A model generated the notes under the pieces. That model was given only the letters and a program-made list of their open reading frames with translations, did not search any database and was not told where the DNA came from. A stretch of DNA of 63,609 nt, the filler included, from Kipferlia bialata (taxonomy: Eukaryota), in assembly GCA_003568945.1 (NCBI GenBank). It is 3 parts of 3 records of this genome, joined end to end, with 100 filler letters (N's around TTAATTAATTAA, not from the genome) between each part and the next. Parts side by side here need not be neighbours in the genome. Positions count along the whole stretch, not along the records: positions 1 to 26,799 come from BDIP01000177.1; 2 more parts are not named here. One strand, written 5' to 3'. Below, one piece after another: positions 382 through 63,568 of this stretch. Within the stretch, counting starts at the first letter, position 1; each line of letters begins with the position of its first letter. A program made the position numbers and the translations under genes.

Positions 382-3300
382 TCACAGCTGTGACCAGGCA
401 GTGTCCATATCATACCCAGCCTGCCCAAAACCTCCCACGGCTAGGTTCTCGGACTCTCTCTCGTGCTGCTCGGCACGGGTCTTACGCGATTGGGACAGAG
501 ATGATCGAGTAGAAGTGTCACCTCTAGAACTGTGTCTTGTGGATACGAGACCTGGGTCAGGTTAACTGAAGTATTCACAATGACTATTCAGTCCTACTCA
601 TATATATATATATATATGCATACCTCCCATTGTCCTCTGGTGCTTGCCTGTGACTACAGTCGTGGCAGATGGGTCGAGGGGAGGGGGGAACTCCCTGGGG
701 GTGGGGGACATCAATGTATATACATATAGTACTGGTATCAGATACATACATACATGCACCCACCTGAGCCTCCCCATGACGCATGCCGCCATGCTCAGCA
801 CCTTGGACACGGGTTGGTATGCCGCAACTAGGTCCACAGAGGATGACCCGGACCCAGACGGGTCACTCCTGCTTAGACCACAGTTGCTGGGGTGAGAGGG
901 GGGGAGGGAGGGAGTATCACTATAAATGATAGTCGGTGTGGGTAGTACCTGTAGGCCGAGAGGGTCTCGAAGAACAGGTCGTATGGCGTGAGCAGGGAGG
1001 TGGACACATACCACGACTCGATGGCTGACACCCCGAACCACAGCAGATACAGGATGAGGGCCTGGGCATAAGGGAGGAATCATCACAAAGAAGTGTATAT
1101 AGGTATCTAGGTACCTGTCTCTCGAGGCTCTGTGTGGACACTCCAGCCCAGACCTTGAGGAGCACAACCTAGGTGAGACGGAGGGTGCGGGGGAGAGAGA
1201 GATGGCTTACTTAGTGCACCTTCCAGCCCTTCTTACTATCGCTATCACTATCACGGTCAGCATCCCTATGCGTACCTTCCAGCCCTTCTCCTTGGCGGGC
1301 ACAGCCTCAGGGGGTGGTCCCCCATCTGCATCGGCCATGCTCTGGACTAGCTCAAGCACACCCTGGTTGTGAGACTGTATATAGACTGATATGTATATAT
1401 ATATATATATACATATATACATAAGGTGTATATAGATGCCATGCTCTGCACTAGCTCAAGCACACCCTACTGTTTAGGGTGTATATAGACAGATATGTAT
1501 ATATATATATATATATACATAAGGTGTATATAGATGCCATGCTCTGGACTAGCTCAAGCACACCCTACTGTTTAGAGGGTATATAGACTGATATGTATAT
1601 ATATATATACATAATGTGAAGATAGATACCATGCTCTGCACTAGCTCCGGCACACCCTGGTTGTGAGAGATGTCTACTATAGGGGAAGAGAATACGTATA
1701 TCAGTAATGTGCGCGTACCCTCTCGAGGTGCACCCCCCTCAGGTTGGCCGTGGACGTGCCCATCGTGGCCAGACTGCCCACATAGGACCCAGTGCCTAGG
1801 GAGGGCTGTCTAGAGTGGCCCAGGGAGACTGTGCCAGAGTGGGCAGTGGAACCAGGTATGGAGTGGCCCATAGACCCCTGCCTAGAGTGACCCAGGGACC
1901 TGGCAACGGAATAGGCAGTGCTGGGAGTGAGGTTGGGAGTGGAGAGATAGACAACCAAGCTACAAGGAACAATTACTTTTATAGATGCATATATATCATA
2001 CTAACAATACTAATACCACTTACCCCTGTGATAGAGACGACATGGACAGGCTGAGGTCTGACACTTCGCTTGACTCCTCCTCACTGCTAGACACCTCCAG
2101 TGGTAGGGGGGCGGTCTCCTCCTCTCTGAGGTCTATGTCTGTCAGGCCATCAGATGACTCCATGTCAACATCGGACACAGACAAGGGGCCATCAAAGACA
2201 AGACCCCCTTCCCCGCCATCTGGGGTGTCGCCGAAGGATGGCTCTAGAGACCCCCTGTAGTGCGGGGACGTGACCCGTGACACCGCCCTAGAGAAGGAGG
2301 GGGAGACGACGCGGCTCACTGACCGAGAGAGCTCCCTCTCTCTGTCACGGTGTTCGTTATGCTGGTGGCCTGGATGGTCTCTGAGGTAAGTGGGTTGCAG
2401 AGTGTGTGTGACAAGACTTATGTGTGACAAGGTGTGTGTGACATGTTAGGCACATACCTGTCCTCTCTCATTCTGACCCTCTCTGCCTCCATCTTTGCAG
2501 ACTCTCGCCTCAGGTGACCCAGGATGTAGGGGACAGCGAACATGACCAGGACAATGAAGACAGACACGCCGTCCTGAGGGATCAGAGAGAGAGAGAGAGA
2601 GAGAGAGTGGAGAGAGAGAGATCTAGTACGCACCGACAGCTCTCTCAGGGGCAGGCTAGAGAGACCACCCCCCAGTGATGCAGCTACCAGGGACAGGTTA
2701 CCACAGAGAGCAGACACCCAGGAGTACTTGCGGGAGTGGAGGTAGGACCAGTCGGAAGAAGAGGTCAGGATGGCCTGACAGGTGAGAACGGCACACCCAC
2801 TCATAGGAGAGAGTGAATGTGTTGAGTATACCCTACACACACATGTATGTACATTCTCTATACATATCCCACCTGCACTGTGCCCATGATACCCACGTAT
2901 GACGTCAGTGCCCAGGTACCCTTGGAGCCAAAGACCATCAATGACAGGGCTCTGGGGTGCCTAAGAAGGGAGGAGTAGGCAGGCTTCAGCGTGATGCTCG
3001 ACTTGTGCCTTGACCTGGGGGTCAATAGGGGGGTTAGAGAGAGAGAGTGGGGCAGATATAGTGTTGCAGAAGCAATGGGAGGAGACACCGTCTATATATA
3101 CCTGAAGATAGCCCTCATAGGAGGTATATATGTGTATGCATGTACATACACATATGTATCTATACCTGAGTATGGCTCTCATGATGGTTGGGAACAGGGT
3201 GTGCCCTGCCATGGATAGGACAGTGACTGGTATGACAACACCAGGGTGCCCTGATACATCCTCTATGCCACCCCGGGGGGTCAGGGAGAGACCTAGTGTC

Positions 3301-8955: not shown

Positions 8956-9656
8956 CTGTAGGCCCTCACGCTCTCCTGGTCTGCGTCCATGTCTATAGAC
9001 ACATTCACAGCCACATAGGCCAGAGGTCCATAGCGGTCCTGGAGTCAGAGAGAGTGGAATATTCCCGGTGTCTCGTGAGTAATTCCATCAAAGGTAAAGA
9101 GAGTGGAAAGCCTACACAAACAAATAGCAGAAGATAGACACTGGGAGCAACAGCAATCAAATGCGATATAGACAGTAATTGCTACCTTTTGTCACTGGAA
9201 ACACAAATAAACAGATATACATCATATACAAAAGAACTATGTATGAACTACAGTGACCCTACCTCGAGGAAGCTGTGGATCTTCGAGTCCTGGGGCAGAG
9301 ACCGGTCTGCAGTGCTGTACCAGCCAACCATGAGGGTCTTAGCGTGGATCTTGCGGTGCATGTCGGCCATGGTGTCACTGTACAGAGAGTCGAAGAACCA
9401 CACGTTAGCATCAGACTGGTTCTCATCGAATGGCACGGCGAAGCAGTCATTCACAATGATGGAGTCGCCCCGGCGCTCTCCCAGCAGCATTCCCACCACT
9501 CTCTTGTGCTTGGCCCCCCTGGCCTGTCTGTCATAGTGGTCAGCCACCTGGAGTCAGAGCAGTATATATATGGGGGAAACAGCAATATGAGTACGACACC
9601 TGCAACAGCACAGTCGGCCGCACTGTCACGTGTACATCAGCACCCACAGCACTCAT
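8956..9656 (-). CDS. RPN8: 26S proteasome lid subunit Rpn8/PSMD7, N-terminal MPN domain only (3 exons)
   Basis: MSAVGADVHVTVRPTVLLQ|VADHYDR...KRVVGMLLGE...NDCFAVPFDENQSDANVWFFD...VGWYST...SKIHSFLE|DRYGPLAYVAVNV...VRAY; exons 9656-9600, 9547-9263, 9038-8956. Confidence 0.85.
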
Positions 9657-9837: not shown

Positions 9838-10560
9838 ATGTCAGACACCCCTGGGAGTGATGTGAGTGATCCCAAGCCTCGGATGACGCTTGATGTAGTG
9901 ACACGTGTACCAGATCAGGCTGTGACAATTCTGTCTCAGAACTTTGATGATGAAGGTGTATCTCTCTAGGTTTAGATATATCTCTATAAGTGTTGCATTT
10001 GAAGCTCTCTCACACTAGAGTCCTCTGACTGGGACCCGCCTGCCATGTCTACGACAGCCCCCAAGCCCCCCAACCCGGCCTCTCTCCCCCAGTCCAAGCT
10101 GGTGCTCAACCTCATCAGCCCGGGGCAGGACACCGCAGCGGAGTCCATCAAGTCCAAGTCCACCGCGGATGTCTGTGTCGGCACCGTGTTTACGCAGAGA
10201 CTGCCTGGCACAGCCCCTGGTCAGGTGTGCAGCGTGGTGCTGGCAGGCGAGGGGGCCGAGCACGTGGGTGTAGGCACTGTGGTTGGGGTGAGACCCCAGG
10301 GGTCAGGGGAGTATGTACTTGGGACTGTATGTGATGTATTTGGGCCCCTACTACGGCCTTACTATGTGGTGCAGTGGGGTGGCCCAGGGGAGGAGAGTGT
10401 GCCTCCATCTAGTGGTGGTGGAGAGACTGGTGAGGCAGGGTCAAGTGTCTCATGTGATGTTCAGGAGGGTGATACAGTGTGGATTAGGGAGGGTTATTCC
10501 CTGGCCCCCCTGCAGAGTGCAGAGCCCAAGGAAGAGGAAGAGGAGGAGGAGGTGGTGTGA
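9838..10560 (+). CDS. Gar1/Naf1-domain H/ACA RNP protein (Naf1-like, no GAR repeats)
   Basis: VLGTVCDVFGPLLRPYYVVQW motif; exons 9838-9955 and 10019-10560; acidic tail. Confidence 0.7.
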
Positions 10561-11463: not shown

Positions 11464-11734
11464 CCCCCACACTTCACACTATACATCAATCTTTCTACTA
11501 CCCCCTCTATCTCTCCCTCTCTCTTATGCTGGGCCGATATTGGTGTCATCGCAACAGAGTACTCTCTCTCTCCCTCTCATTCATATATATGTATCTCTTA
11601 CCTCAGGCTGATATTGATGTCATTGCAGCAAAGTGCAGTTCCTCTCTCTCTCTCTCTCCCTCTCTCTCTCTATCTCACTCTCTCTCTCTTATACCTCAGG
11701 CTGACATTGATGCCATTGCTGCAGAGTGCACTTC

Positions 11735-11780
<46 letters not shown>

Positions 11781-11788
11781 TATACCAG

Positions 11789-13057
11789 GCGGATATTGAT
11801 GTCATTGCTGCAGAGTGCAGTGACGAGATTGAGCTGGAGGAGAGGCTGCTCAAGCTAAAGGTAATGCCGGATACATATAGATAGAAATATAGTATATATG
11901 TGTTGTATATGTTTATATGTATTGTATCTAGTTGTGTGATTGAGCTGGAGGAGAGGCTGCTCAAGCTAAAGGTATATCTGGTTTGAATATACACTATATA
12001 TGTGTAGTACATGTGTATATATGTATATGTAGTGATGAGATTGAGCTGGAGAGGCTGCTGAAGCTGAAGGGGTAACAATGGAAGAGCATGACCATGAGAC
12101 TGAGGAGTATATATATATACATATCAGCACTTCGTATTTACGTGAGTGTAGTGAAAATATCGATACTCTATATGTGTAGGTATTTTTTTATTTATTTCAT
12201 TCTTAGGAGTCCATGGACCAGCAGGACAGTGAGACTGGGGAGTATATACATATATCACCATATATATATATGTGTATGTGAGTATACAGTATAGGAGTGT
12301 ATACTATACTAACCCACTAGGAGAGTATGGACCAGCAGGACAGTGAGACTGGGGAGTATGGGGACGAGGGGCTGAATGCATTTGGAGAGGTGGCACCAGA
12401 GGATGAGGACAGGTACCTAGAAACATATTGATGGGTGTATTTTTATATATTGAGAGAGAGAGAGATAGAGAGAGGGGGGAGAGAGAGAGTATGCATTTGG
12501 AGAGATGACACCTGGGGAGGAAGATAGGTGTGACATTTCTATATATATAGAGTGAGGTTAGTATATGGCGTATCTACAATAACGATTTTGTGTATATTGT
12601 TCCTCTCACCCCAGGGAAGTGAGTCTGCCTCCTTATATATACATGTATATACATGTATAAACATAGACTTGTATATACATGTATAAACATGATATATACT
12701 TCACCATTTTCTATTTCATATGTACTATAACTCCTACATATATAGTATGTCTCACCCCAGGGAAGTGAGTGAGTCTGCCTCCTTCAACTTCGATGGCTTT
12801 GAGGCAGTGGCTAAGGTATTGTTGTATATATATATAGTAATAGTATAGTTATAATATAGTGTATATATATATATAATATGGTATATGCCTCCTTCAACTT
12901 CGATGGCTTCGAGGCAGTGGCTAAGGTATTGTTATATTATATATGTGTGATAGTACAGGTGTATTTTAAATTGTGATTCTTATTCTCTCTCTGCATACTT
13001 CTCACTCCAGCAACCGGCCACCCCTACGCAGAACCGGGCCGCATCTCCGGTACGTCA

Positions 13058-13097
<40 letters not shown>

Positions 13098-15285
13098 AGC
13101 CCCTTATTTCAGGCTGGAGACATGATGTCTTCAGGCAACCTCAACTCCACCCACCCACCTAGAATCAAGATAGAGACTCCCGCATTCCCAGAGACAGGTA
13201 TCTCTCTCTCTCTATCTCTCTCTCCTCCTACACCCTTCATACAAGACTGTAATATCAGTATTCCCAGACTATTGTCCCTCTCTCTCTCTCTCTCTGCCTA
13301 CCCCCCTTTTTACCCCAGACGATGAGGGAGAAAGGAAGGGGAAGAGCAGCCAGTGGTCCCAGGTATGGAGAGCGATGTATATACTCCTGTATATGACATT
13401 AATATGTATATGTGTGTCTCTATCTTATCTCGCAGGAGGCCGTGACCCCCAAGACCCTCTTCTGTGACAGGGATGACACATCCACACAGGCACTGCAGGT
13501 AAGACTACGTGAACCCATTCCCTCTCTCTCTCTCCCCCGCCCCCTCTCTATATATATTATTGTATGTTTGACGGGTGTATAGATAGATAGATAGATGATA
13601 CATATACCCCCCCCCCCCTCACCCCAGAGTGCCAGAGCAGGACAGAGAAGGCGAGAGAGGGCATTCCCTGAGGTGTCTCTGAGGTATGTATAGTGTATGT
13701 ATATGTATGTATTAGTGATTATGTGTTCATTGAAGGCTGGGATTGACAGAGAAACAGTGGAAATGAGAATGAAATGTATGAATATGTGAATTCACTATTT
13801 ATATGCTAATCCCAGAGAGACCTCTCGTGGAGGTAGCCTGCGTACCACAAGGCGTCGCAAGACCATAACCAGGTATATATACTTGGATGTATATCTTCCT
13901 CACCCATATTTCTCTTGATCTAGCCCCTTAATTCTCTTCAGCTAGACCCTTATTACCAGGCCTGCCATGTGGGATGCCGATGGTGATCAGCAGAGCTCCA
14001 AGCAGACTAGGGAGAGGGAGAGAGTCCACCTGGAGAAGTGGTCTAGACAGGTATGGACTCTCGTTTCAAATACTAACACTTGTTTCTTTGTTTTCCTTTG
14101 TTTTCTCTCTCTTGCTGACACAACAGGTGCCCCTTGGCGTGAGTGAGAGGGAGAGAGAGAGGCAGGAGAGAGAGAGAGCCGAGGTGGAGAAGGCCCTGGA
14201 GATGGAGAGGTGTGTAATACACTATGGTTTATATATTACATCATGATGCTGTTTTCTTTCTGTCATTGATACCTAGGTTCAGAGGTGGATCCGTGCCCCT
14301 TCTACTGACTGTGCACAAGATGGACTCATCTCCATCAAAGGTATACTATTAATATATAATTTATGTGTGTAGTATAGTATATATATATGTATATAGAGAG
14401 AGAGTATATGTATAGTATATGCTGTGCACAAGATGGACTCATCGCCATCAAAGGTATTACTCAATGATATGTATATATATGTGTGTTTATCTTATATACA
14501 TATGTGTGTAATGTGGATGTGAGATGTAGCATTAACCCTCAGGGCAAGGGTCTGGACACCTCTCCTCCATGATATAGGATACATAGATTATATAGTATTC
14601 ATCAGTGTATACAGTACACTATTCCTAAGTATGTATATAGTATACTTACCACTAGGGCAAGGGTCTGGACGCCAGAGGCTCTGTCGGTGAGAGGGAGAGG
14701 GAGAGAGACAGGGAGAGGGAGAGGACTGTGAGTCGGGAGGACAGAGACACTCAGAGTCTGAGGGGCAGCAGAAGGAGTGCTAGACACAGAAAGGGAATGA
14801 GCAGCAGGTAATATTTAGTTGTGTCTATATGGATGATATATATTTATATTGATATATTCAGGCCTGTCCTTAAGAAGTACATATTAATATATCATGTATA
14901 TATATTGTTGTATATATATATTAATAGTTATACTGACCCCAGGCCAGCCCTTGAGAAGTCCTCTGACTCCTCGAGTGATGAATCAGTATATTATACATCT
15001 ATATATATATACATATGAATATATATTTACAAATGTACATGTAAATTAATACCTGTGCTTACCCCAGGCCTGCCCTTGAGAAGTCCTCTGACTCCTCGAG
15101 TGATGTATCAGTAGATTGTGTATCTATCCATATATATACCATATACCATACTATATTTCATGGTAACGCCAGGCCTGCTCTTGAGAAGTCCTCTGACTCC
15201 TCGAGTGATGAGAGGGACAGGGAGTACAGCAGGGTGTCACACAGGTCATCTAGGAGGAGATCTAGGTAGTTACACACACACACAC

Positions 15286-15316
<31 letters not shown>

Positions 15317-15506
15317 GAGGGGGGGGTGATAGGGAGTACAGCAGGGTGTCACACAGGTCATCTAGAAGAAGGTCAAGGTATATACATACATATGTGTATA
15401 TATATTGACAGAGAGAGAGGGGGAGAGAGAGGGACAGGGAGTACAGTAGGGTGTCACACAGATCGTCTAGGAGGAGATCTAGGTATATACATAGTATATG
15501 TATATG

Positions 15507-15539
<33 letters not shown>

Positions 15540-16229
15540 GAACAGGGAGTATAGCAGAGTGTCACACAGATCATCCAGAAGGAGGTCAAGGTATATACAT
15601 AGATTGTCTACCTATAGATATTATATATCTCTACAAAGGTGGCTCACCCTTACTATAGTACCATTCAACAGTCATCATCTCACCCCCCAGCCGTGGCAGT
15701 AGCCACAGGAGCTACAGGAGTCGCAAGCACAGGTATCACACTCTGTATAGCACTCTCCAGTTACTCTCTCTCTCTCTCTCTCTCTCTCTCCCCCTCTCTC
15801 TCTCTCTCTCTCTCTCTCTATAGTATATCTGTCTCACTTTAGGCGCCACCGTCACCGCCACCACCACCACAGTGACTCAAGCTCAGAGGACTCAGGGTAC
15901 GTAGTGTGTTTTGTTATATGACTCATTTCGCTGTATATTTCTTTGATACTATGAAATAATGTATTGAGTGTCCTCACCCCCAGCCCTGCCCCCCTCCCTG
16001 CCAACTGTGTGACCATGGACCAGTTCAACGTGAGTGGTGTGTATATATGTATGTATGAATATACGTATGAATATATATACTATTGTTGTATATATGCAGG
16101 ATATCTCTTGTCAGCTGGATGTGTGTCCATGGACCAGTTCAACGTGAGTGGTCTCATCCCTCTCTCTCGCTCTCCTTTTCGTCTCTCACATGTCTATCTG
16201 CTGTCAGTCCCAGACCCTGACCATCTCTG

Positions 16230-16261
<32 letters not shown>

Positions 16262-16363
16262 CCTCTCTCTCTCTCCTGTGCATGTATACATACATATATA
16301 TATCCTCACTCCCAGACCCTTGTCCAGAGCATCCAGACCCTGACCACCTTTCTCTCTCTCTCC

Positions 16364-16395
<32 letters not shown>

Positions 16396-19069
16396 GTGTA
16401 TGTATATATATATATACTCACCCCCAGACCCTTGTCCAGAGCATCCAGACCCTGACCACCGAGTTCACATCATACAGGTATAGGGTTGTTCTCTATTACT
16501 ATATATAAATATTCTCAGTTTTGAATTGTTAGAGAGACACTCCCACTCTCAATGTATTTACTACATATGCCCTTTTTACCCCTCATGTCCACCATGGAGG
16601 ACAGGGTGTCCAAGATATATTCTCTCTCTCTCAATGTATGTACATATATACAATATATTTATACTAATCTACTATATATACCATTTTAACCCCCAAATCC
16701 ACCATGGAGGACAGGGTTTCCAAGATATGCTCTCTCTCTCTCTCTCTATAAATATATATATATCCCTCTCTCTCTATATATAAGTATATATAAATATATA
16801 TATATCCCTCTCTCTATATATATTTTTATATATGTATATATCCCCTCTCTCTCTCTATATATATATATCTAACCCCCCAGATCCACCATGGAGGACAGGG
16901 TGTCCAAGATGACCAAGGAGGTGGAGAGCAGGTATAGTAATATATATGTGTATACACTATATATGTATATGAATATAAATATATACCTACACATATCCAT
17001 TCTAACCTTCAGAGTCCAGTTCCTTGCCAAGCAGCTGGTTGAGACACTACATATACATATGTGTGTGTCTGTGTATATATACTTACCCAAGTGGCAACCT
17101 ATCTAACCCCCAGAGTGCAGTTCCTGGCCAAGCAGCTTGTGGAGATGAGTTGGATATGGATATTGTATATGTGTATGTATGAGTATATATATATTCACTA
17201 ACCCTTAGGGTGCAGTTCCTGGCCAAGCAGCTTGTGGAGATGCGTGGTGAGTACACCTCCAAGGTGGAGGCAGTGGTGACACAGATAGAGGAGATCAAGG
17301 AGAATGGAAGGTATGAGATATATATATATATATATATGATATATATATATATATATATATATATCTGTGTTTCTGGTTGTGACCCTGTTCTGTATAGTGG
17401 ATATGTCTCTGTATGTCTATATATACATTGTTTCTTTCTCAAACGCCAACCTCAGCGAGAGGGAGAAGGAGAGAAGTAGGGACAGAGAAAGGGAGAGAGA
17501 GAGATCCGTCTCTCCCTCATCAGACAGTGAGAGTGACAGAGAGAGGGAGAGGGAGAGAGAGAGAGAGAGGAAGAGAGAAAGAGAGAGAGAGAAGAAGAGA
17601 GGGAGAGAGAGCACGAGAGGGAGAGGCAGAGAGTCATCTCGCAGAGGGAGAGAGAAGGAGAGAGAGATTACCCTCAAGAGGCCTGAGTATGCGTACAACC
17701 CACAGATGTGCCACCCTGATATCAAGCTGGGCAACGAGAACACTATAGCTCAGAGACAGGTATAATAATATGTGTCTATGAGTGTATACGTTTGCTGTCT
17801 ATACAGATATCTAGCTACATATATACCGTCTCAGTAGTATAGTCCCTACGGCCCTCTGTCCCCTTTTGTTTCCCTGAATACCTGTGATACACATTAACAC
17901 AGTACCTCTCTAACTTCTTAGGACGGTGACTCTGGGTGGCACGGTGTGCACATTGGGGAGGAGTGGAGCAAGGGGATCAACACAATCACGTTCAAGGTAC
18001 TGATGCCTAATGATACATGTATATATATAGATAGGTAGATATATGTTTATATATATGATATATATAGACATATATATGTATCAGTGCATATATATGTGCA
18101 CATAGGGGAGTACGGGAATCAACACAATAACATTCAAGGTGCATACATAACGGATATGTGTATACTATGTGTGTATGTAAATACCCATATGGTCTCATCT
18201 CACTGTCAGATTGAGCGCCTGGCCAGCAACGGAGGCATCATGATTGGCATATGTAAGCCAGACGGCCCGTACGTATTGTGTGTATATATTATATATATCA
18301 CGTATTGAGAGTCACTCTGGTATAGTATACAGACAGTATCCTCATTCTCCCTGCCTCACTCCCTCACTGTCTCTCTCTAGCCCCTTACCCCAGTGTGGAG
18401 GGTATCTTCCACCAGAAGGACACCTGTGCACTGTTCAACGATGGCCACAAGGCAAAGGGAAACAAGGTATATCTATAGAGAGATAGATATATGAAAATGT
18501 ATATATATACTGTACCTTATGTATATACTCTATATATTCCATTATGTTATTTGCATGTGCCCTGTTCAACGATGGCCACAAGGCAAAGGGCAACAAGGTA
18601 GATATGTATCTATATATATAGATATACTTATATATATAGAGAGAGGGTAGCAGGTATATAGATAGATTAGTATGTGTGTACTATATATGTATGCCCTGTT
18701 CAACGATGGCCACAAGGCCAAGGGGAACAAGGTGTATACACACACAATGATAACAAACATAACTGTTGGACACAGTACATCGTAACTACTATTTTGCATT
18801 CGTTCTCTTATCGATAGATGCAGAAGTACGAGACTGGCAAGCCCTTTGATGATAGTATTGCTCCTCTGACTCCAGAAGAACGATACACTCTCTTTCCTTC
18901 ATTCAAGTCTTCGAGTTCCTTTCTTTGAGTTATTTTTCTTCTGTTCTCTCATCCCCAGATGCAGAAGTACGATACTGGCAAGCCCTTCACCCAGGGTGAC
19001 CTAGTGTCTCTCATAGCCAACATGGACAAGAGGTCACTGGGCTTCTTTGTGAATGGTGAGTGTGTACTA

Positions 19070-19104
<35 letters not shown>

Positions 19105-19246
19105 TGTCTCTCTTACCATAGGTGAGTATCTCCACACTGCCTTCGAGCGCATCCCCCGTACCGTTGTCCCCTACATGGAGATATGGGCTCCTGGTGATGC
19201 TGTCTCTGTGGTGCCCACACCTGAGAACCTACTCTCTGGAATGTAG
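11789..19246 (+). CDS. Large low-complexity/coiled-coil protein with C-terminal SPRY/B30.2-like domain; 5' end missing
   Basis: More than 20 in-phase exons ending ...HPDIKLGNENTIAQRQ|DGDSGWHGVHIGEEWSKGINTITFK|IERLASNGGIMIGIC...GKPFTQGDLVSLIANMDKRSLGFFVNGEYLHTAFERIPRTVVPYMEI; TAG 19244-19246. Confidence 0.75.
14935..15592 (+). repeat. Intronic partial-exon tandem 'echo' repeats around exon 15173-15265 (type example)
   Basis: Two or more upstream copies of acceptor+PALEKSSDSSSD and three downstream copies of DREYSRVSHRSSRRRSR+donor, separated by TA/GA-rich spacers. Confidence 0.9.
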
Positions 19247-19734
19247 TAGAGGCCATGTAGTAGAGAGAGAGAGAGAGAGAGAGAGCACGCTGTCTCTGTG
19301 GTACCCACACCCGAGGGTCTGCTCTCTGGAATGTAGGGAGTGAGGGGGAGTTCTCTCCCATGTATAAAGAGAGTATGTGCCCCTACTCTTTGCAGTGAAG
19401 GACAGTGTCTCTTTCACAGAGAGATCGTGATGTGAGATGAGTCTTACACACACGGTGTTTGTTGTATGTTTATGTATGTATGTGTATGTGATTTCCTATC
19501 GGCGTGGCACGGAGTAGTAGACTTAGAATAGATGTTTGGCGTCTGCGATATCTAGCTATCTATTACGCATCAGATGTGTTGTGTGGTGTCCCTGGTGAGG
19601 GTCTATTCTCTCCTATAACGCCTCAGATATATTGTGTATCCTGTCTCTTTGTACCCTTGAGAGAGTGACTTAGTTTGTAGAGGGTGGCCCCAACGTACTG
19701 TAGGCCTAGATCTTTGGCCAATCCTCCTGGTATA

Positions 19735-22700
19735 TTAGTTGAAGTTGTTAGATCTAAGCACCCTTAGTAATCCTGACATTGCCCTAGGTACATTATCATA
19801 TCTGGGCAACTCTGGGGAGTAACCAACATACATACTAAATTGAATTTTTCCTAGCGCTAGTAATAGCATCCATCTAATACTTTGCCTTCAATAGTATAGA
19901 AGCATTGGTACTAACCTAGTTGTTGTATGAGTGGCTCTATCACAGCAGATTGTAAGGTGGTCAGGGAACTGACTGACGGGGGATGCCTAGGGGGCCTGGA
20001 GAGTAAGAAGAAGAGGAAGGATACGAATTTACTAACTGTATATGATATATATGATATTGACCTCATATATATAGGTGCTCTATACCATATATGAATACCT
20101 CCACTCTGGACACCCCAGCTGTTGTGACATATGTGTCAATATGTGTCAACATACATCTATATCTGTCTACGTAGACATATGTGTCTATTATAGTCTATAA
20201 TGCAGAGTGGTATAATTATTATTGACAGTCTATATACCTCCCTCTCTTCCACTCCGGACACCCCAGTTGCTGGGATATGCCATACGTCAGAGTGTCAGTC
20301 TGGTGCCACACACGCACGTCCTTCCATATTCTGGGTGTCAATACAAGTGTAGATATAGAGAGACTTGTGCATCAATGGTCAATTGAACATTGTACCAGTA
20401 TTCATGGTCGTATTGTGTGATGTATCCTATGCTGACCTGTTGCTATACCATGGCCGCCGGATCCCTGCGTAACACGATATCGCTAGGACACCTCTGAGAA
20501 GAAGAGTCTGGAGCGTGCCTGGTATTGGTGTTGGTAAATACATTACTATGTGATGGATCACTATCCCTTTGACCGCTGTTTCACTATCACAGTACATATG
20601 TACATATATTGTATAGTACAGAGTACTGACGTCACAAGGTACCTAGTGGGCTACTGGGAGACGCCAGGCAACGAGGTAGGACGTCTTCCATCTGAGTTTT
20701 AGCGAGTTCATTAGGGCCATCAGTAGTATCTACTAGACACTAATTAGCAATTCCACGTTCACACAACACCGAAATGCAGGTTATACCTCAGGTCTCTGGA
20801 AGAGAAGTATTTGTGCTCTCTCTGCTGGATCCATGCTGCCTATCCACTGCCTGAACAGTACAATCTCCAGGATCAGTGATGGCAGAGAGTCATACTGAAG
20901 GCTTAAGAAGAGCTGGTCATGAGAAAGACACCCCATATAGATCCTATACTATTGAGTTTTAATAAGACACATATAGTCCATATCAAGCAAATGTGTCTTG
21001 CGTCTCATTACAGGTAATTGAACATATTGTATGTTGTGCAGATTCACTACATCACCTTCCGAAGCAGGTCACATGTACCCAATGGAAGCTTTGCTAGTAA
21101 GCCAGTCTGTTGTGCCAGAACAAGTACTACACTGCGGTAAAACTTTGTAGCAAAGTCATAAAGGTTCTCATGAGTATAGATGGAATGTGCATCAGTCAAT
21201 GAGAGTCAATTTTACTGTGGGTGAAAATGTGCAATACATACCCAGCGGTGTGTCTCATTGTGGCCATATCCCTGTGGAGGCAACCCACCGTGTGTACCCG
21301 GCTGTCCTTGGATAAGTATCAAAGATAAGACAAAGAGACAGGCAAGAGAAGAAGAGAGTTAAGACACACACATGTGATCATGGATTGTTGCGCATAACCG
21401 TATACTGTATTGCAGTGGTTAAAGTCGTGTTCTGTCACATAGTTCTGCATCTCGTTATATCGCTCGAACCTGCGCCGTGTTGGAGGCGCACTTGAAGTTG
21501 TCTATCTCGTGACTGGTTGCAGCGAGACACAATAGTAACACGCAATGTACGGGACAGTACAGGGAACCACCGGTGCTAGCCCTGGTTGTTAGCGGAGAGG
21601 ATCTCACATTGCAACACGAATACCACGTATGACAAAGGGGGGCCTGACTCTGGCTTGAAATAGTCACGATTTCTGTATATATAGGGTCACTCGTGAGCCC
21701 TGGGGCCTGAGTCAGGCCCGGCTTGACTCACACATACTCGGATACCTTATAGCATGGACTATATGGTGTATGACTTGTACGGCGTCCAGTGCACGTAACG
21801 CATATTGTTCCTGTGTATCTTCAAGGAATCTGACATTAGGATGGAAGACTATCAGTGTTGCGTAGTAGATCATATATACTCTATATACTATACAATATGT
21901 GTTCATACTACATCATTGTGGCACATACCTTGCTTTCAATGACAACAGAAACCGACTGAAGTCCAACTCTCTAACTCCTGCAGTTCCTAGTCCTGTTATT
22001 AACAACAGAGTATTTGCGTTCAGGTGTGATAGCACAAGACGAGTATTACACTTACAAGCCTCGATCGATTGAATACTATACACGTGGGTGGCGTACCTAT
22101 AGACCGAAAGAGATACATTGTTCCCGCTTCGAATCCTCGGTATCCTGAGATATGATCCAGGTAGCTCACATCGTAGTCAAGTGAAGCTCGGAATTGCTCC
22201 AGTGCTTGCCTGCATGGTTAGACTTACAATTATTCGGTTCTCCCGAATTTCTAACGTGAAGACAGTACCTTGCCCTGTCGTGTCTCAAGAGGGTCTGATA
22301 GGCAAAGCCAAACTCCTTGCAGGATAGGGTAGACGCTATCTGAATGGGGTGGCAGAACAACGTGTGTGGCAGTCTAGGGATGTACCTGTGAGAATTAGTC
22401 CCACAGTAACCCATTTGTCAAGTGTTTGGTATATACAATTGTATGCAATAGTTGTGTAAATGGAAGAGAGATAGATGGATATCTACTATGGCGAACCTCG
22501 TTGTGGTCGCCACAGGTATAAGGTTGGAACCCCTAGAGTGCAAAGATTGCATCGAGAAACCATTCAAGTGGCGACGACAGCCAGGTACAGGTAATCTCAC
22601 GAAGCTTTCTGTAGATGATAGATCCACCGAAGATCTCTTCTTCTGGCGTCGCCTCTCCAACCTCTGATTCATGGCGATAAGCATCTTCAGAGTCTCCCTG

Positions 22701-26354: not shown

Positions 26355-26799
26355 ATGCCCAGACTGAGTCTCTCCCATGTCAGTCTGCAGCACCTGCCTG
26401 CATACCTACTGGCATCAACACGCATAGCAGACAACCAGGTACAGATATATCACGACAAGAACAATATATACCTAAGTAGCATCTATTAATGCTCTAGCAC
26501 TGTCATGGAACTAGAGTATATATCAGACAACCAGGTACACTCATGAGTCATGAGTCATGACAAAAGACTCTCTTAACATAGCACGGGTCACTCTTATTCA
26601 CTGTAGAGACACTATCACTTTAGCATTGTGTGTCTTGAACATATACACTAGGCATAGTGAGTAAATCTCAATGAACTACTGACTCTAGGTAGTGTTTCTC
26701 GGCTCTCACACTGTAGACTGGGACCCAGTATGTTTGGTAGTCAGTCGTCTTAGTAACGGTACCTTCGAGGAGGAAGTGGTACCCTGTCCCATTCCAGAT
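26355..26799 (+). CDS. Probable 5' fragment of another kelch-type gene, truncated by contig end
   Basis: MPRLSLSHVSLQHLPAYLLASTRIADNQ| ... WDPVCLVVSRLSNGTFEEEVVPCPIPD resembles the N-termini of the other kelch genes here; exon phasing not resolved. Confidence 0.35.
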
Positions 26800-33252: not shown

Positions 33253-33317
33253 ATAGATTCTGAAACACACTGCAAATACATGTAGACTCTGGAGTCCAGA
33301 GTCTGAACTCGACCACT

Positions 33318-55943: not shown

Positions 55944-56078
55944 AGGATGACTGAGTGTTGCCAAAAGAGACTGAGTGAGAGTGCTCTTTCAGAGCCAAAA
56001 ACAGACCATTGACCCAAACCCTCAAGGCACAGCCGGGACAGGCCTTTCAAGTCAGGAACAGCGTGGTTGTTCACTGAT

Positions 56079-56606
56079 ATGCTTCGCCGAAGAGGCCCAT
56101 CGACGCCTAACATGGCGCCCCTAGAGTCCAGGGTGTCTCAGTTGGAGGAGAGTGACGCCCAGGCTGAGACAAAGGTGAGTCTGGATCTTGTTTATCCTCT
56201 TATAGGCTGTAGCAGAGCATGTAGACCCATGGGGAGGTGGATATAGGTGCTATGTGGTTGCTGCTGAGTATTTAGACTCGGTTTGGGTCATTACTTTGCT
56301 GGGTTTTGATATTCTGACATATTGTCACTCCAGTCTCAATGTGTCCAAGCCACCTCAAAATGCTGTGATATAACTAATATATGTATATATAGAACATGTT
56401 GAGGTGTGAATTGGGGTAGCTGGCTGTGGTATGTTGTGTATTGCCATGTGTCACTGAGTCTTGTCTCACATTCTCACTTTCTCTTGGTGAGTCTTGACTG
56501 CTAATAGGGATATTATTGCTATTATTGCATACGCAGCACTTGCGTGTTCTCATACATATATTTGTGTCCTCTGGTATCTGTTGGCTTCACTCTCTCTCTC
56601 TCCCCC

Positions 56607-56641
<35 letters not shown>

Positions 56642-57550
56642 GTACTCACCCCCCAGTTCACCACTCTGATTGAGACCTCCATCGCGGATGCCATGGCATC
56701 TCTCAACAGAGAGATAGAGGCACTCGAGACTGCCCAGGGCAGGCAGTTCAAGGTGAGATGGGTATAGACATATAGTCTATAGCATAGTATGTATAGTACT
56801 GATAGTTATTATTATATAGTATGTGGTAGAGGCACTCGAGACAGTCCAGGGCAGGCAGTTCAAGGTATGATATGGATGGGTATGGATATATGTATGGTAT
56901 ATGTATATAGTTAGTATGTATATATAGTTAGGCAGTTCAAGGTATGGGTAGATGTGTGGATAGAGTATAGCTCAAGTAATTGGTATTATGGGTGTATGGA
57001 GTGTGTCCCCCCTCTCACCCCCAGGACCTGTCCCAGTCCCTTCATATGTGAAGGATATATATCCATGAGTATATACGTGTATATAGTATAGTATGTATTC
57101 ATATCTAGTATACATACCCACCCCCAGGACCTGTCCCAGTCCCTTGGCAAGCACCAGTCCGCACTCAGGTATATATGGGAGTATATACATATTAGTGTGT
57201 ATGTATGCTCAGTATATTCCCACCCCAGGTCCCTGGAGGCTGCTTCCTCTGAGACTCAGTGTATATATAGTACATTTCATATAGTTTATACAATTTAGGA
57301 ATTAATATATACAACCAGTGAACTATATCTTCTAACCCTTAGGTCCCTGGAGGCTGCCTCCTCTGAGACTCAATGTGTATATAGTATCATACTACCGTAT
57401 AGTATATATATATATGTGTGTATACTGAGTGTATATTCCCACCCCAGGTCCCTGGAGGCTGCCTCCTCTGAGACTGACAGACAGCTGACAGGGGTGGAGC
57501 AGACACTCAGTGCTCACAAGGTATATAGTATTGTATATATAGATATATGA

Positions 57551-57602
<52 letters not shown>

Positions 57603-59893
57603 CATCTGACAGGGGTGGAGCAGACACTCAGCGCTCACAAGGTACAGCATAGATTTCCACTACTGTTTCTATATTGTGCTACTCTTCTAATACACACAAG
57701 TATGTCTCCCTCAGGACCAGATGGCGTCTGTATCTGTCTCTAAGTATATATAGGTATATATGTGTATAGTAGAGAGTATCACTAGTAGTATTTTGATACT
57801 CTATATAGATACACATGCCTCTAAACCCCAGGACCAGATGGCGTCTGCCTCTGCCTCTGCCCGTGATGCATTGAACACACAGAGAGACAGGGTGGTCAAG
57901 GAGATAACTAGCATAAGGTATGTTATGTTATATGTATACATGTAGGTATATGTAGGTATGTATGGTCTCACCCCAGGACCCTTGTTGCAGTCACCAGGAG
58001 ACAGCTCGAGACATCGTTCACAGCCCTGGCGGCTAGGTATGGGTTGATGGTTAGAGTGATATATGTATCATGTACAACTTGTCTAACCCCCTCAGTGTTG
58101 AGCAGGAGAGGGACAATGATAGTATATGTTGTATATATATGTATATATATGTGTGTGGTAATTGATTGTATTATTCTGACCCCCTCAGTGTGGAGCAGGA
58201 GAGAGACAGTGACAGGGAGAGAGAGAGAGAGGCAGAGGGGGAGACCAGGCAGAGAGAGGCCGCCCTGACAGAGTCTCTTACTAGTGTCAAGGGGAGGGTG
58301 CTGGCACTGGAGGTATATAGATTAGTGGATATATACAGAAAACACCGAAATACTTACCCCCCAGGACTCCACCCATGCCCTGGTTCATACATATTCATAC
58401 ACATATATATGCATATGTATTTGTATGCTCTGAATACTTACCCCCTCAGGACTCCACCCATGCCCTGTCCCTGTCCCATGACAAGGTGGTGGCATCAGTG
58501 GCAGAGTGCAGGGCACAGTGCCACGAGGATAGTCAGGTATATATAGTATATAGTATATATATAGTATATATATAGTATATAGTATATAGTATATATATAG
58601 TATACATCATACATATATTGTGTATATATATTGAGTTTATAGTGGCAGAGTGTAAGGCACAGTGCCACGAGGATAGTCAGGTAGAGGACATATACATGTA
58701 TATAGAGATACAATGCCTCATATATAGATATGAGTATACGTATTGAGTATATAGTGGCAGAGTGTAAGGCACAGTACCACGAGGATAGTCAGGTAGAGGA
58801 TATATACATGTATATATATATAGATATATATATATATATAGATAGATACTATGCATCATATGTATATATATGTATATATATTGGGTATATAGTGGCAGAG
58901 TGCAGGGTACAGTGCCACGAGGACAGCCAGGTACAGGGTGCACTATGATATACATTTCAAATATACTATAATATATTTGGAGACAGTGCATATATATATG
59001 CTATATGCTTACACTCACCCAGGCCACTGCGCAGCGTGTGTGTGAGGAGTACCAGACTGGGGTTGAGGCCTCTGTCTCTGTCCTGTCCACCCAGTGCACT
59101 GCGGCACATGAGTCAGTCAGTGCCATCAGACAGACACAGACACAGCACAGTGAGGGGGTGGATAGTGCACTCAAGGAGATGAGGTACATGNNNNNNNNNN
59201 NNNNNNNNNNNNNNNNNNNNNNNNNNNNNNNNNNNNNNNNNNNNNNNNNNNNNNNNNNNNNNNNNNNGAGGTGTGTGTGTATATTGTATATGTATACAGA
59301 CACAGCACAGTGAGGGGGTGGACGAGGCATTGAAGGAGATGAGGTGTGTACTGAATAGGATATTGTAGATATATGCGTATATGTATGAATTTGCATCTGC
59401 CTCACCCCAGGACCCTCCTTACGACCTCCATCTCTTCCCATGCTGCCTCGGTTGATGCCCTGACACACACCATGGAGACACATGCCCAGGAGGCACAGCA
59501 GACATACACACCAATCGAGGAGTACAGGGTATGGTGGAGAGATAGTACATTCATATATATGTAGATTAGTTGGTACTCATAAATATATGCACACATCACT
59601 GACCCCCCAGGCCTACAAGGCTGAGAGGGAGGTAGAGAGAGAGAGAGACCTTGCAGAGACCAAGGAGAGAGAGGCTGCCTCTGCCACAGAGACACAGACA
59701 CAGATGGAGGCACTCAGACAGACAGCAGCGGAGGAGGTATGTGAATGGATTATGTGAATGGATATGTACTGTGTACACCACTGCATACCCCTCACCCCCC
59801 AGACTGCCTCTGTGCGTAGTGCCCTGGAGGCTGAGGTAGAGACACTCACACAGACACAGACACAGGACAGGGAAACACAGAGGGAGAGGTGAG

Positions 59894-59928
<35 letters not shown>

Positions 59929-61220
59929 TACATATTGATTTATATATATGTGTGTGTATGTATATATATATACAGACACAGACACAGGACAGAGAGGCAC
60001 AGAGGGAGAGGTGAGACATTGTTGTAGATATGTAAGTGTGTATATACATCTCACCCCAGCGCAGCCTCTGCCTCCACCGCCCTCAACACCCTGTCCACCA
60101 CCCTGTCAGCACAGATTGACACCCTGACCTCTGCCCTTGAGGCTGAGACCCAGACTAGGGCAGAGGGGGAGGGGGAGACTAAGGCATCCATTGAGAGGGT
60201 GGCACAGGGTGTGGAGGCTGAGGGGGCAGAGAGAGAGAGGCAGGGCGAGGAGGCCAGGGTGCACACCCAGTCCCTGATAGAGTCACTGAGACAGGAGATG
60301 ACACGGGAGATGGACAGGAGACAGCAGGAGCAGGTGGGTGTTAATACTGATAGGTATATGGGTTCATATATTCATCCCTTTCACCATGTCTCACACCCTG
60401 ACAGCAGCTGCCTCTGCCTCCCATGCCTAACTGGCCCCATACACTATATCAGTACATAACTATGATACACTACTGCATATTGTATTGTATACTAACCTCA
60501 GACCGATGCTGCCTCAGCCTCCCACACAATATCATCATGCATCTATATATATATATGACTGAGATACATTACTCTATATTGTATACTATTGCATACTAAC
60601 TTCAGACCGCTGCTGCCTCTGCCTCCCATGCTGCCCTCTCCTCCTCCCTGTCCACCCTGAGGAGTGACATGACACACACAGTGGCAGAGGCAGAGGAGAG
60701 GCTGGCACAGAGGATGGAGGGGCTGGATAGGGATAGGAGAGAGGCAGTCGGTACGGGTGGATGTGGATATATACAGTGTATATGTACACGCACATATGTA
60801 TTTACCTTTGTATCCCCTCACCCCCCAGCGTCTCTCTCCTCCCGGCTTACCCTCCTGGAGGATGGCCTGTCAGCCCTGACAGCACAGACAGACAGAGGGG
60901 TTGAGGCAGTCAGCGAGAGGTATGTATCCACTATGAGTACTTGTTTTATATATGTATACATCTATGTATATACCTATTGTCCGCTCACCCAGGCTATCCA
61001 CTGGCCTTGCCTCTCTGACCCAGACCCAGACTGAGGATAGACAGAGGGGAGAGGACAGGTGCAACGCACTCGAGGTATGGGGTATTGCGATATGTTGGTG
61101 TATTGGCTAACCATATACCCCCCCCCCCCCAGTGCGCACTCTCTCTCTCTCTCTCTCCATACATATCCGCCCTCACCCCCAGGCCTCTGTCTCTGCCTCA
61201 GTCTCTGCCCTCGATGACAC

Positions 61221-61251
<31 letters not shown>

Positions 61252-61319
61252 ATGTATTCATATATATACCCTCACTCTAGGCCTCAGTCTCTGCCTCAGT
61301 CTCTGCCCTCGATGACACC

Positions 61320-61370
<51 letters not shown>

Positions 61371-63568
61371 CATATGTATATACCCTCATACTAGGCCACT
61401 GTGACTGCCTCAGTCTCTGCCCTAGATGACACCCTCTGCAAGTACAGGACAGGGGCTGACAGACACGTGAGGGATGTGACGCAGGGTCTGCACACATCCA
61501 TAGTGGCCCTGAGAGATGGGGTGACACACAGACTGCAGGGGGTGGAGAAGAGGGGGCAGGACGTGGAGAGGTATGTGGGTGGATATGTATATATATATAT
61601 ACATACATACACCCCCTGACCCCAGGCGTGTGTGTGATGTCGACAGAGAGGTCTCTGCCTTGAGGACAAGGCTTGACACAAACATGCAGGGAGAGGCACA
61701 CAGGGCTAGCCAGGTATACTAGATCTATACTTTTCAGTGTGTTAACATAGGTCAACTGGATAATACATCTCTATACCCTCTCACCCTCTAGTTGCTGGGC
61801 CAGGTGCATCGCAGCATTAGTATACATATGTGTGCGTATACAAATTGGATACTATGTATTTACCATCATATTCTACTTACCCCCTAGCTCCTGGGCCAGG
61901 TGCAGCGCAGCATAGATAGATCTGTGAGTGCCCAGGCTGAGGTGACAGAGAGAGACATCAGGCAGACGGTGGCAGAGCAGAGGGAGAGGTATATATTTTG
62001 TAGTGTGTAGAGAGTATGTATATATATATATATATTAGAATCAGAGAGAGACATCAGGCAGACGGTGAAGGAGCAGAGGGAGAGGTATGATATATAGTGT
62101 ATATAGAGTGTGTGTGTGTGTATATATGTATATGTTAGTATCAGAGAGAGACATCAGGCAGACAGTGACGGAGCAGAGGGAGAGGTATGATATGTAGTGT
62201 AGTATATAGTATATATATACATGTATATCAGTATCAGAGAGGGACATCAGGCAGACGGTGAAGGAGCAGAGGGAGAGGTATGAAGCACACAGATGTTGGA
62301 TATTCTATGTATATGGTGTATACATACTATGTAGTGTGTGTATACATACTCATACCCAGAGATGCCTCGACCCGTGCCTGTGTGACCACCCTGTCTGATG
62401 ACATCGAGGCCCTGGCAGACAGTGTCCGGAGGCAGGCACAGACGCAGCAGGAGGTATGTAGTATGGGTACATTAATATATATACCGTGTGTATGTATACT
62501 ACACCCCTTACCCTCCGAGGCCCTGTACATTGTGGAGAGTGCATGTGCTAATATATGTATATATATACTAACGTGTACATATATGTATATACAGATATCC
62601 AATCTCTGTCTCACCCCAGGCCCTGTGCATTGTCGAGAACGAGGCTGCATCCCGTAGGGCAGTCCTTGCGAAGAGGGTCACAGCTGGGCTGGAGGAGGTA
62701 GGGGTGGATGTGTGTATCTATCTGTGCATATGTATATGTGTATGTCCCTGTATTCACCTCTGATTCCCTAGGTAAAGGCCACCCACACATGTATTCGTAT
62801 TGTTTTACACATATGTATGCATCTGAGGTCAGTATCAGTATCATACTGTGTGTGTATATACCTATATATATGTCCCTGACCCCAGGTCAAGGCCACTGCC
62901 TCTGTGCAGGCATCGGCCATGGGCATGATGAGGGAGAGGTAGGGAAGTATATGTATATATATATATGTATATATACCATATTAATATGTATATACTATAC
63001 TATAAACCACTATACTCATTGTTCATCGGCCATGGGCATGATGAAGGAGAGGTATGATGTATATGTCAATACAACTTGTATGTAACATATACGTTAGGAT
63101 TTGTCACGTTTATATTATACTTGTCCCTCTTTCTCTTCTTCCCCCCCAGACACACCTCTCTGTCTGAGTCTGTGTCAGATACATGTATATGCAGTGTATA
63201 TTCTATGTTAATAGTATCCTGGATGTTCCTTACCCCCAGACACACCTCTCTGTCTGAGTCAGTCTCTGCCAGGCTGGGTGATGCTGAGTCACTCCTGTCA
63301 GTGCAGACAGAGGCACAGGCACAGCACGAGACAGAGGTAGTATATGTATATATGTATAGTTATATATAGACATTAATATATGTATATGCACACAGAGGCA
63401 CAGGCACAGGCTGAGAGTGAGGTATGTAGAGTATTTTATTATTTATACAGTATTATTAATACTGATATGTATATATATATATATACTATGGGATGGTATA
63501 TATATACATCTATCAGTGCAGACAGAGGCACAGGCACAGCACGAGACAGAGGTGTCTCTCTCTCCCTC

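What the first reader, a model, noticed from the sequence alone, without database searches (positions are those of the whole stretch)
11530..19340. Pervasive 'exon echo' architecture: half-exon copies carrying splice sites, stacked in introns with consistent polarity
Seen: many exons of the SPRY gene are flanked by 1-3 partial copies of about 25-60 nt, spaced ~90-130 nt apart by (TA)n/(CT)n/(GA)n sequence. Copies of [branch point+AG+exon start] lie upstream of the complete exon (11530, 11602, 11695; 12207; 12614; 14942, 15067; 16213, 16316; 17013, 17114; 18818). Copies of [exon end+GT] lie downstream (11937, 12032; 12886; 14422; 15328, 15431, 15538; 18100; 18559, 18693). In those I aligned, no copy has both ends. 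Inference: a microsatellite-associated duplication process acting at exon borders. It leaves intact decoy splice sites that the spliceosome must either ignore (exon definition) or use in a non-standard way. I do not recognise this as a described feature class.
Basis: partly seen in the sequence, partly recalled or inferred. Interest (0 to 1): 0.88.

Follow-up and report, generated by a model that had tools for sequence, protein, structure and literature searches.

The report
Stacked half-exon copies carrying allele traces
Two intron-rich genes of what is likely a protist carry about fifty half-copies of their own exon ends inside introns, a repeat type known from lancelets as 'mirages'; the copies were spliced out in the four introns checked, and because they differ from the working exons mostly at silent positions, they likely preserve pieces of other, quite different alleles.

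Summary
The echoes are real, but the class is known and the polarity is geometry. 21 of 22 listed copies were confirmed; this gene and a second one in the window hold 52, all with the stated polarity. Any head-to-tail duplication across one exon border gives that order. DNA contigs at ordinary depth bridge echo and exon, and four RNA joints use the outermost sites. Such repeats are described in amphioxus as 'mirages' (PMC3087553), and this scan noted them earlier in sea urchins, once with a silent-site bias.

The mutation-type-matched N/S ratio is 0.19 (0.11-0.30), against at least 0.55 in single-lineage simulations. GT survives in 23 of 24 donor echoes although the intron flanks have diverged strongly. 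Echoes therefore look like ends of other functional alleles, likely captured by out-of-register recombination, which would imply recombination among haplotypes at least 15-20% apart at silent sites. No second isolate was available to test this. The spliceosome skips a normal-sized inner intron, which points to exon definition.

The parts
11789..19247 (+). Host gene, 26 GT-AG exons (39-304 nt), RS/acidic-rich protein with a SPRY-like C-terminus (label recalled); more 5' exons exist upstream
11533..11730 (+). Three acceptor-side echoes of exon 1 (11533, 11607, 11700), outermost with GG for AG
   Evidence: this stack was not covered by DNA contigs
11938..11971 (+). Donor-side echo of exon 1, 34 of 34 nt identical, different donor flank
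   Evidence: partly inside DNA contig 11945-12242
12028..12110 (+). Fused relic: end of exon 1 (four silent changes, 3-nt deletion), 8 nt, then start of exon 2 from nt 7
   Evidence: inside DNA contig 11945-12242
12207..12245 (+). Acceptor echo of exon 2, with a serine codon switch AGT to TCC
12491..12527 (+). Donor echo of exon 2
12614..12925 (+). Acceptor echo (12614-12634), complete exon 3 (12761-12815) and donor echo (12886-12925)
   Evidence: One DNA contig 12495-13049 at depth 447 with no other letters; RNA skips 348 and 195 nt at the outer sites
14422..14560 (+). Donor echo of exon 12 (14422-14453) and acceptor echo of exon 13 (14543-14560)
   Evidence: DNA record 5 lies on both sides with equal spacing, depth 460
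14860..15105 (+). Acceptor echoes of exon 14 (weak 14860, 14943, 15068)
   Evidence: RNA skips 365 nt to the complete exon
15328..15590 (+). Three donor echoes of exon 14; 15 of 16 differences from the exon are silent; four-gamete pattern
   Evidence: only the last echo is partly covered by a DNA contig
16120..16348 (+). Donor echo of exon 17 (16120-16143), mid-exon piece near 16213, acceptor echo of exon 18 (16316-16348)
16588..16726 (+). Two acceptor echoes of exon 19, both without AG
17014..17150 (+). Two acceptor echoes of exon 20 (outer one: five silent changes, no amino-acid change)
18104..18138 (+). Donor echo of exon 22
18556..18846 (+). Two donor echoes of exon 24 (18556, 18692) and an acceptor echo of exon 25 (18818)
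19289..19336 (+). Downstream copy of the last codons and stop, with no splice site involved
56070..63551 (+). Second echo-rich gene (coiled-coil-like, 23 exons chained) with 25 echoes, same polarity and silent bias
1335..1670 (-). Exon start and three acceptor echoes in a minus-strand gene

Best explanation
The echoes are ~110-nt head-to-tail duplications across single exon borders ('mirages') that are spliced out with the intron in the four introns checked, and they likely carry exon ends of other functional alleles brought in by out-of-register recombination between diverged homologs. Shown: the tandem layout, the use of the outer sites in four introns, and coding-type divergence of the copies. 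Inferred steps: (1) A break or slip in an exon is repaired by one end copying through the splice site into the intron and rejoining at a TA/CT/GA microsatellite; this gives the first half-copy and fixes the breakpoint. (2) Exons are the only good homology islands between haplotypes whose microsatellite-rich introns differ. An exon end on one homolog therefore pairs with an echo on the other, and a crossover or conversion inside the 20-55 nt match adds units and swaps in that allele's exon end, splice site and intron flank. (3) Older units are pushed outward and lost before they decay much. (4) Exon definition would pick the sites flanking the complete exon, so the stacks are nearly neutral.
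For: Real DNA: X1 contigs bridge echo and exon at depth 433-477, like echo-free contigs at 357-415, with one other letter in 4.3 kb. Skipped in RNA: X2 joints of 460, 348, 195 and 365 nt, all GT..AG at the outer sites, with no other letters. The inner GT..AG 'core' has a median of 89 nt, like echo-free introns at 87 nt, and echo sites score like real ones (donor 8.9 vs 8.7, acceptor 9.1 vs 9.9). Coding-type divergence: 74 of 118 unique changes are silent (nulls 35-36, maximum 56), and 26 of 41 changes private to one echo (null 12-14). Of changes in an inner echo where an outer echo agrees with the exon, 13 of 20 are silent (p=0.001). Transversions occur at 34 of 256 four-fold sites but 7 of 381 two-fold sites. 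Type-matched N/S is 0.185 (0.11-0.30), below 0.5 in each gene, while 24 single-lineage simulations gave 0.55-0.83. Replacements are mildly conservative (BLOSUM 0.00 vs -0.47, p=0.04). Seven echoes in five other genes show 7 silent and 3 replacement changes. GT is kept in 23 of 24 while the first 10 intron bases differ at 47%; the flanks are still detectably homologous to their own site (percentile 0.69 and 0.75). Silent divergence is 0.29 in the half next to the splice site and 0.16 in the half next to the junction, with pN flat. The outer copy is more diverged in 10 stacks, the inner in 1, with 2 ties, and the exon 14 stack shows four gametes.
Against: No second allele or isolate was seen. 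X1 showed no divergent exon copy at >=85% likeness (contigs drop variants), so the donor alleles are inferred only. The model needs silent divergence between source haplotypes of 0.15-0.35, which from recall is at or above the highest known within species. The two tightest stacks (exon 1 acceptor, exon 14 donor) were not covered by X1 contigs, so their layout and the four-gamete pattern rest on the assembly. X1 may be the assembly's own source, and X1 and X2 are one sample. Flank divergence is inflated by slips in (TA)n and does not track exon-part divergence (rho 0.13). The absence of stops (0 in 575 codons) is not significant (expected 1.9, p=0.15). The transition-only N/S of 0.30 is nearer the single-lineage floor. 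Why the intron part of a unit is rarely under 46 nt (median about 76) is unexplained.
Confidence: 0.6

Rival explanations
1. The echoes are plain copies from the same chromosome that froze older versions of the exon; the exon kept changing at silent sites and the copies decay neutrally, with turnover by unequal sister exchange or conversion.
For: Outer copies are more diverged (10 vs 1); several copies are identical to the exon; units in a stack share a breakpoint. An earlier AI note on a sea-urchin mirage read a silent bias this way (e1-7880682).
Against: In one lineage an echo's own branch is at least as long as the exon's, so N/S cannot fall much below 0.5. Simulations gave 0.55-0.83 against 0.185 observed. 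Changes that must lie on an echo's own branch are also silent-rich (13 of 20). Decay would destroy GT as fast as the flank, yet GT is kept in 23 of 24.
Confidence: 0.12
2. The source copies are homeologs or long-diverged homologs of a hybrid, polyploid or old asexual ancestor. The echoes are scars of error-prone repair between them during loss of heterozygosity, not products of ongoing sex in a diverse population.
For: It fits the large silent and intron divergence without record polymorphism. Acceptor flanks alternate between types in some stacks, for example exon 4 of the second gene and the minus-strand stack.
Against: Stacks of three echoes plus the exon show four different haplotypes with private silent changes, more than two parents would give. 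No paralog at >=85% appeared in DNA or RNA contigs.
Confidence: 0.13
3. Echoes stay under selection because they are used, either translated in minor isoforms or swapped into the exon by a regular DNA or RNA process.
For: Codons and splice consensus are both conserved. Contigs drop rare forms, so minor use is not excluded.
Against: Using an echo site keeps the frame open in 4 of 43 cases and in frame in 14 of 43, which is the chance rate. An in-register AG|GT for a half-exon swap exists in 5 of 51. No copy has both ends. RNA contigs carry only exon letters.
Confidence: 0.08
4. The assembler stacked alleles of a heterozygous or mixed sample.
For: The allele-like divergence is what stacking would show, and two stacks lack contig cover.
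Against: Separately assembled contigs cross the new intron-to-mid-exon junctions at full depth. One contig of 555 aligned nt holds echo, exon, echo and next exon with no differences. Such junctions exist in no echo-free allele, so graph assembly cannot invent them.
Confidence: 0.04

Closest known systems
Amphioxus 'mirages' (Adh3, globins BflGb6 and BflGb9, TnC, PGBD5): Ebner et al. 2010, PMC3087553 (passages read); PMC3902484 (one passage). Canestro 2002 was not held.
   Same: Tandem duplications spanning an intron-exon border, at both 5' and 3' borders, many keeping AG/GT, with regular splicing unaffected and units of similar size (150-160 bp in globins).
   Different: Here they sit at 13 of 26 and 13 of 23 exons of two genes in a likely protist, as 1-3 copies rather than long homogenized arrays. 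Intron parts are far more diverged than exon parts, and the differences are mostly silent; 'synonymous' has no hit in Ebner's main text. Its supplements and the Adh3 paper were not seen and may touch this.
Intron gain by tandem genomic duplication (Rogers model; review PMC3443670, passages read; Hellsten 2011 PMC3265369, abstract only)
   Same: A local tandem duplication that touches coding sequence and splice-like signals.
   Different: That model duplicates an exonic AGGT and makes a new intron. Here existing borders are copied and the old outer sites stay in use, so introns grow (median 313 vs 87 nt) and none is gained.
Duplicated-splice-site competition (Reed and Maniatis, as summarized in Carranza et al. 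2022, PMC9225289, passages read)
   Same: Two similar donors or acceptors compete for one partner.
   Different: For short introns the site nearer across the intron normally wins. Here the outer site wins even in a 195-nt intron, matching the exon-centric rule that paper ties to introns over about 250 nt.
Sea-urchin exon-border repeats noted earlier by this scan (e1-7787398, e1-7787241, e1-7880682; AI notes, unchecked)
   Same: Gene-wide junction copies; one note reports mostly silent differences.
   Different: Another lineage; here the bias is tested against single-lineage models and exceeds them.

Membership tests
Amphioxus-type mirage | Head-to-tail duplication spanning an exon-intron border | tested here: met
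   52 copies anchored at a border; periods 93 and 108 found by TRF; bridged by DNA contigs at several sites
Amphioxus-type mirage | Both 5' and 3' borders can be duplicated | tested here: met
   27 acceptor-side and 25 donor-side copies
Amphioxus-type mirage | Many but not all units keep AG/GT | tested here: met
   GT 23 of 24, AG 20 of 24 examined
Amphioxus-type mirage | Regular splicing not disturbed | tested here: met
   Four RNA joints shown, all at the outer sites; the rest of the gene was not tested
Amphioxus-type mirage | Concerted evolution within clusters, 81-100% unit identity | tested here: inconclusive
   Exon parts average 93% identical to the exon and breakpoints are shared, but echo-echo silent divergence is 0.33 and intron parts are far lower
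Amphioxus-type mirage | Copy number differs between haplotypes; somatic instability | not testable with these tools
   One sample, contigs only; two metagenome scans empty
Rogers tandem-duplication intron gain | Duplicated exonic AG|GT used as new donor and acceptor | tested here: not met
   In-register AG|GT in 5 of 51; RNA uses the old outer sites
Mutually exclusive tandem exons | Each copy has both an acceptor and a donor | tested here: not met
   0 of 52 have both ends
Recursive or nested (intra-) splicing | First step regenerates a splice site for the second | tested here: inconclusive
   23 of 24 donor echoes end in AG, but so do 40 of 47 real exons; only 2 of 27 acceptor echoes begin with GT; intermediates cannot be seen in contigs
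Assembler haplotype stacking | Junctions absent from reads or at half depth | tested here: not met
   Bridging contigs at depth 433-477 vs 357-415 for echo-free ones; two stacks not covered

The most novel reading that the evidence does not exclude
Exon ends in this lineage are routinely renewed from other haplotypes, and the displaced ends are kept as a protein-compatible, splice-competent reserve. Each intron is then a layered archive of alleles that is still swapped back into the gene or used in minor transcripts, so one genome records cryptic sex and very high silent diversity in a free-living protist.
Probability: 0.12. Interest if true: 0.88.

Novelty: new variant of a known kind. Interest (0 to 1): 0.52.

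Why it matters
If the allele reading holds, stacked echoes let one read recombination and silent diversity (0.15 or more) from a single genome of a protist with no population data. Such a test of cryptic sex could be run genome-wide without new isolates. Independently, each stack is a natural competition between near-equal splice sites. The outer site wins although an ordinary ~89-nt intron lies inside, which makes exon definition directly testable in a short-intron microbial eukaryote. It also shows one way introns lengthen three- to four-fold without intron gain, and it warns gene predictors about decoy exon ends.

Tried and rejected
No whole genome is held, so genome-wide frequency is unknown. 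The run search listed no holder on record as RNA; X2 is a guess by the tool, and I treat it as RNA because its contigs skip GT..AG introns. Reads were laid only on 11470-15760, so echoes from 15760 to 19340 and the second gene have no read test. RNA bins without cover that no listed contig joins across (11614-11757, 14350-14637, 15358-15645) are not used as evidence. Two degenerate-motif scans of metagenome contigs for other isolates found nothing. The aldolase exon's best PDB hits are 323-residue aldolases 3gb6/3gak/2isv (83 bits vs 65 for the next), which I recall as Giardia; a fornicate-like protist is an inference. Passages of a fornicate genome paper had no hit for 'duplicat', 'heterozyg', 'ploid' or 'meio' (PMC5874029). 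Paper searches found no description of synonymous-biased junction copies; one search gave the mirage papers. Canestro 2002 and Gao and Lynch 2009 were not held. The Paramecium preprint's diversity values are in image tables and could not be read, so the benchmark for high diversity is recalled. Rejected: polarity as evidence of a special mechanism (geometric); extended-exon translation; context-dependent mutation as the cause of the silent bias (trinucleotide-matched null 36); paired halves from one split exon (complementary in about 4 of 8 exons with both sides, by eye); a cDNA origin for 12028-12110 (8 nt instead of 6 between the parts, so a deletion between two echoes is as likely). Two of seven outside loci gave no open exon chain and were left out. 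I found no open chain linking the Gar1/Naf1-like frame at 10027 to exon 1 with the sites I tried.
Full report
Observation. The region is an intron-rich eukaryotic gene. Joining 26 exons at the outermost GT/AG sites from 11789 to 19247 gives one open frame. Aligning each exon with its two flanking introns found 28 partial copies here and 25 in a second gene at 56070-63336. In 1062 non-adjacent exon-intron pairs there were 11 hits, all in low-complexity or internally repeated pieces. Of 52 copies (the 3'-end copy at 19289 left out), 27 are exon starts upstream and 25 are exon ends downstream; none is reversed and none has both ends. Units measure 74-215 nt, median 112, and reach 18-56 nt into the exon even in exons of 100-176 nt. 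Density is patchy. A masked self-scan gave 13-20 hits per 4 kb at 8-20 kb and 56-63.6 kb, 8 at 0-4 kb, and 0-2 elsewhere (hits include echo-echo pairs). The two rich genes are 18-21% dinucleotide repeat against 6% for the large gene at 33.8-51.4 kb.

Polarity. A head-to-tail duplication across an acceptor leaves the truncated copy upstream; one across a donor leaves it downstream. The order is therefore expected and is no sign of a special process. A copy of the stop-codon region at 19289 shows that the process does not need a splice site.

Real or artefact. Two runs from one sample were laid on 11470-15760. DNA contigs cross the new junctions at ordinary depth. One spans 12495-13049 (acceptor echo, exon 3, donor echo, exon 4) at depth 447 with no differences. 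Others cover 11945-12242 (477), 14146-14678 in two pieces with equal spacing (460) and 14732-14976 (433). Echo-free contigs have depth 357-415. These junctions exist in no echo-free allele, so assembler stacking is very unlikely. Limits: the exon 1 acceptor stack and most of the exon 14 donor stack were not covered, X1 may be the assembly's own source, and contigs drop rare forms.

Splicing. The second run's contigs join 11860 to 12321, 12412 to 12761, 12815 to 13011 and 14807 to 15173, all GT..AG at the outer sites and with exon letters only (20 further joint rows were not shown). Echo sites score as well as real ones, and the innermost GT..AG pair would give a normal intron (median 89 nt vs 87). 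In intron 3 the skipped donor shares its first 8 intron bases and 39 of 40 exon bases with the used one. Carranza et al. (PMC9225289, passages) report that short introns favour the inner site and exon-defined ones favour the site closest across the exon. Exon definition is thus the likely reading (inferred). Using an echo site would keep the frame open in 4 of 43 cases.

The unexpected part. Echoes differ from their exon like diverged coding sequence. Over 53 copies, 91 of 141 differences are silent (null 43). Counting shared changes once gives 74 of 118 (nulls 35-36, including a trinucleotide-matched one), and for changes private to one echo 26 of 41. Transversions hit 34 of 256 four-fold and 7 of 381 two-fold sites. 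The type-matched N/S ratio is 0.185 (bootstrap by stack 0.11-0.30; 0.13 and 0.28 in the two genes; transitions alone 0.30, 51 copies, with 19289 and 63387 left out). One copy has an AGT-to-TCC serine switch. Seven copies in five other genes add 7 silent and 3 replacement changes. A copy that merely froze an older exon cannot do this. Its own branch is unselected and at least as long as the exon's, and 24 simulated settings of duplication, unequal exchange, conversion and loss in one lineage gave 0.55-0.83. Changes that must lie on an echo's own branch are still 13 of 20 silent. The intron side agrees. The first ten bases past GT or AG differ at 47% (ungapped, inflated by slips), yet GT survives in 23 of 24 donor echoes, which were found from exon sequence alone, and flanks remain weakly homologous to their own site. 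The copies therefore diverged while they were working exon ends.

Mechanism. The most economical source is other alleles. Junctions are microsatellite-rich, suggesting that a first duplication arises when a repair or replication end copies through a splice site and is rejoined at a TA/CT/GA tract (inferred). Units of a stack share the breakpoint, so stacks likely grow by out-of-register pairing of an exon end with an echo on a homolog. Such exchange would replace the splice-side part more often than the junction side, and silent divergence is indeed 0.29 near the splice site and 0.16 near the junction, with pN flat at 0.03 (local alignment trims far-end mismatches, so this is suggestive). Outer copies are more diverged in 10 of 13 stacks (1 reverse, 2 ties), and the exon 14 stack shows four gametes. 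Solving for the source diversity gives 0.15-0.35 at silent sites and a short life as non-coding copy. If the organism is a fornicate, as the aldolase hits suggest (Giardia label recalled), the repair background would fit. Metamonads lack NHEJ, and fornicates lack Rad51A and have two Dmc1 paralogs (PMC8516963, passages); Dmc1 stabilizes mismatched heteroduplex (PMC6719624, abstract). None of this was tested here. No second allele or isolate was found. A hybrid or old-asexual origin, frozen self-copies, residual use and artefact are the rivals, in that order.

Comparison. The class is described. Amphioxus 'mirages' are minisatellite-like tandem duplications of either exon border that often keep AG/GT and leave splicing intact (PMC3087553; PMC3902484). 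Four defining features are met here, concerted evolution is inconclusive, and length polymorphism could not be tested. It is not Rogers-type intron gain and not a set of alternative exons. Searches found no paper on synonymous-biased junction copies or on such copies in protists. The original Adh3 paper was not held and the globin paper's supplements were not read.

Verdict. A real feature and a new variant of a known kind: dense mirages outside animals whose copies look like allele pieces. The coding-type divergence and the skipped inner intron are worth a genome-wide and population follow-up. Interest 0.52.

Noticed in passing
window 12028-12110: An exon 1 end and an exon 2 start lie almost joined inside intron 1 (8 nt between instead of 6); either a deletion between two echoes or a piece of an intronless source.
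   Followed up: partly
window 33000-51400 (+): A very large gene with many short introns, only a few echoes (33080, 39917, 49028 regions) and low microsatellite content; a natural control for echo hot and cold regions.
   Followed up: partly
window 8173-8420 (-), 23711-23853 (-), 27321-27456 (+), 26424-26539: Further isolated echoes or short direct repeats in other genes on both strands.
   Followed up: partly
window 10027-10560 (+): Open frame with a weak Gar1/Naf1 hit (E 0.002, below cut-off); the RNA contig of the echo gene extends 110 nt upstream of exon 1, but no open chain to this frame was found.
   Followed up: partly
window 9263-9547 (-): JAB/MPN domain exon, likely a proteasome lid subunit.
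   Followed up: no
window 53870-54876 (+): Class II fructose-bisphosphate aldolase with short echo-free introns; best PDB hits are 323-residue aldolases.
   Followed up: partly
window 20060-20290: Two ~25-nt direct copies about 160 nt apart in non-coding-looking DNA, not at an obvious splice site.
   Followed up: no
window 26800-26900, 53683-53782, 59191-59268: Scaffold gaps of N; the first two carry a 12-nt AT spacer in the middle, and one lies inside an echo-bearing intron of the second gene.
   Followed up: no
acceptors across the window: A branch-point-like CTRAC/CTCAC motif sits a few bases before a C-rich CAG/TAG, a fused branch-acceptor layout (likeness to diplomonad introns is recalled).
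   Followed up: no
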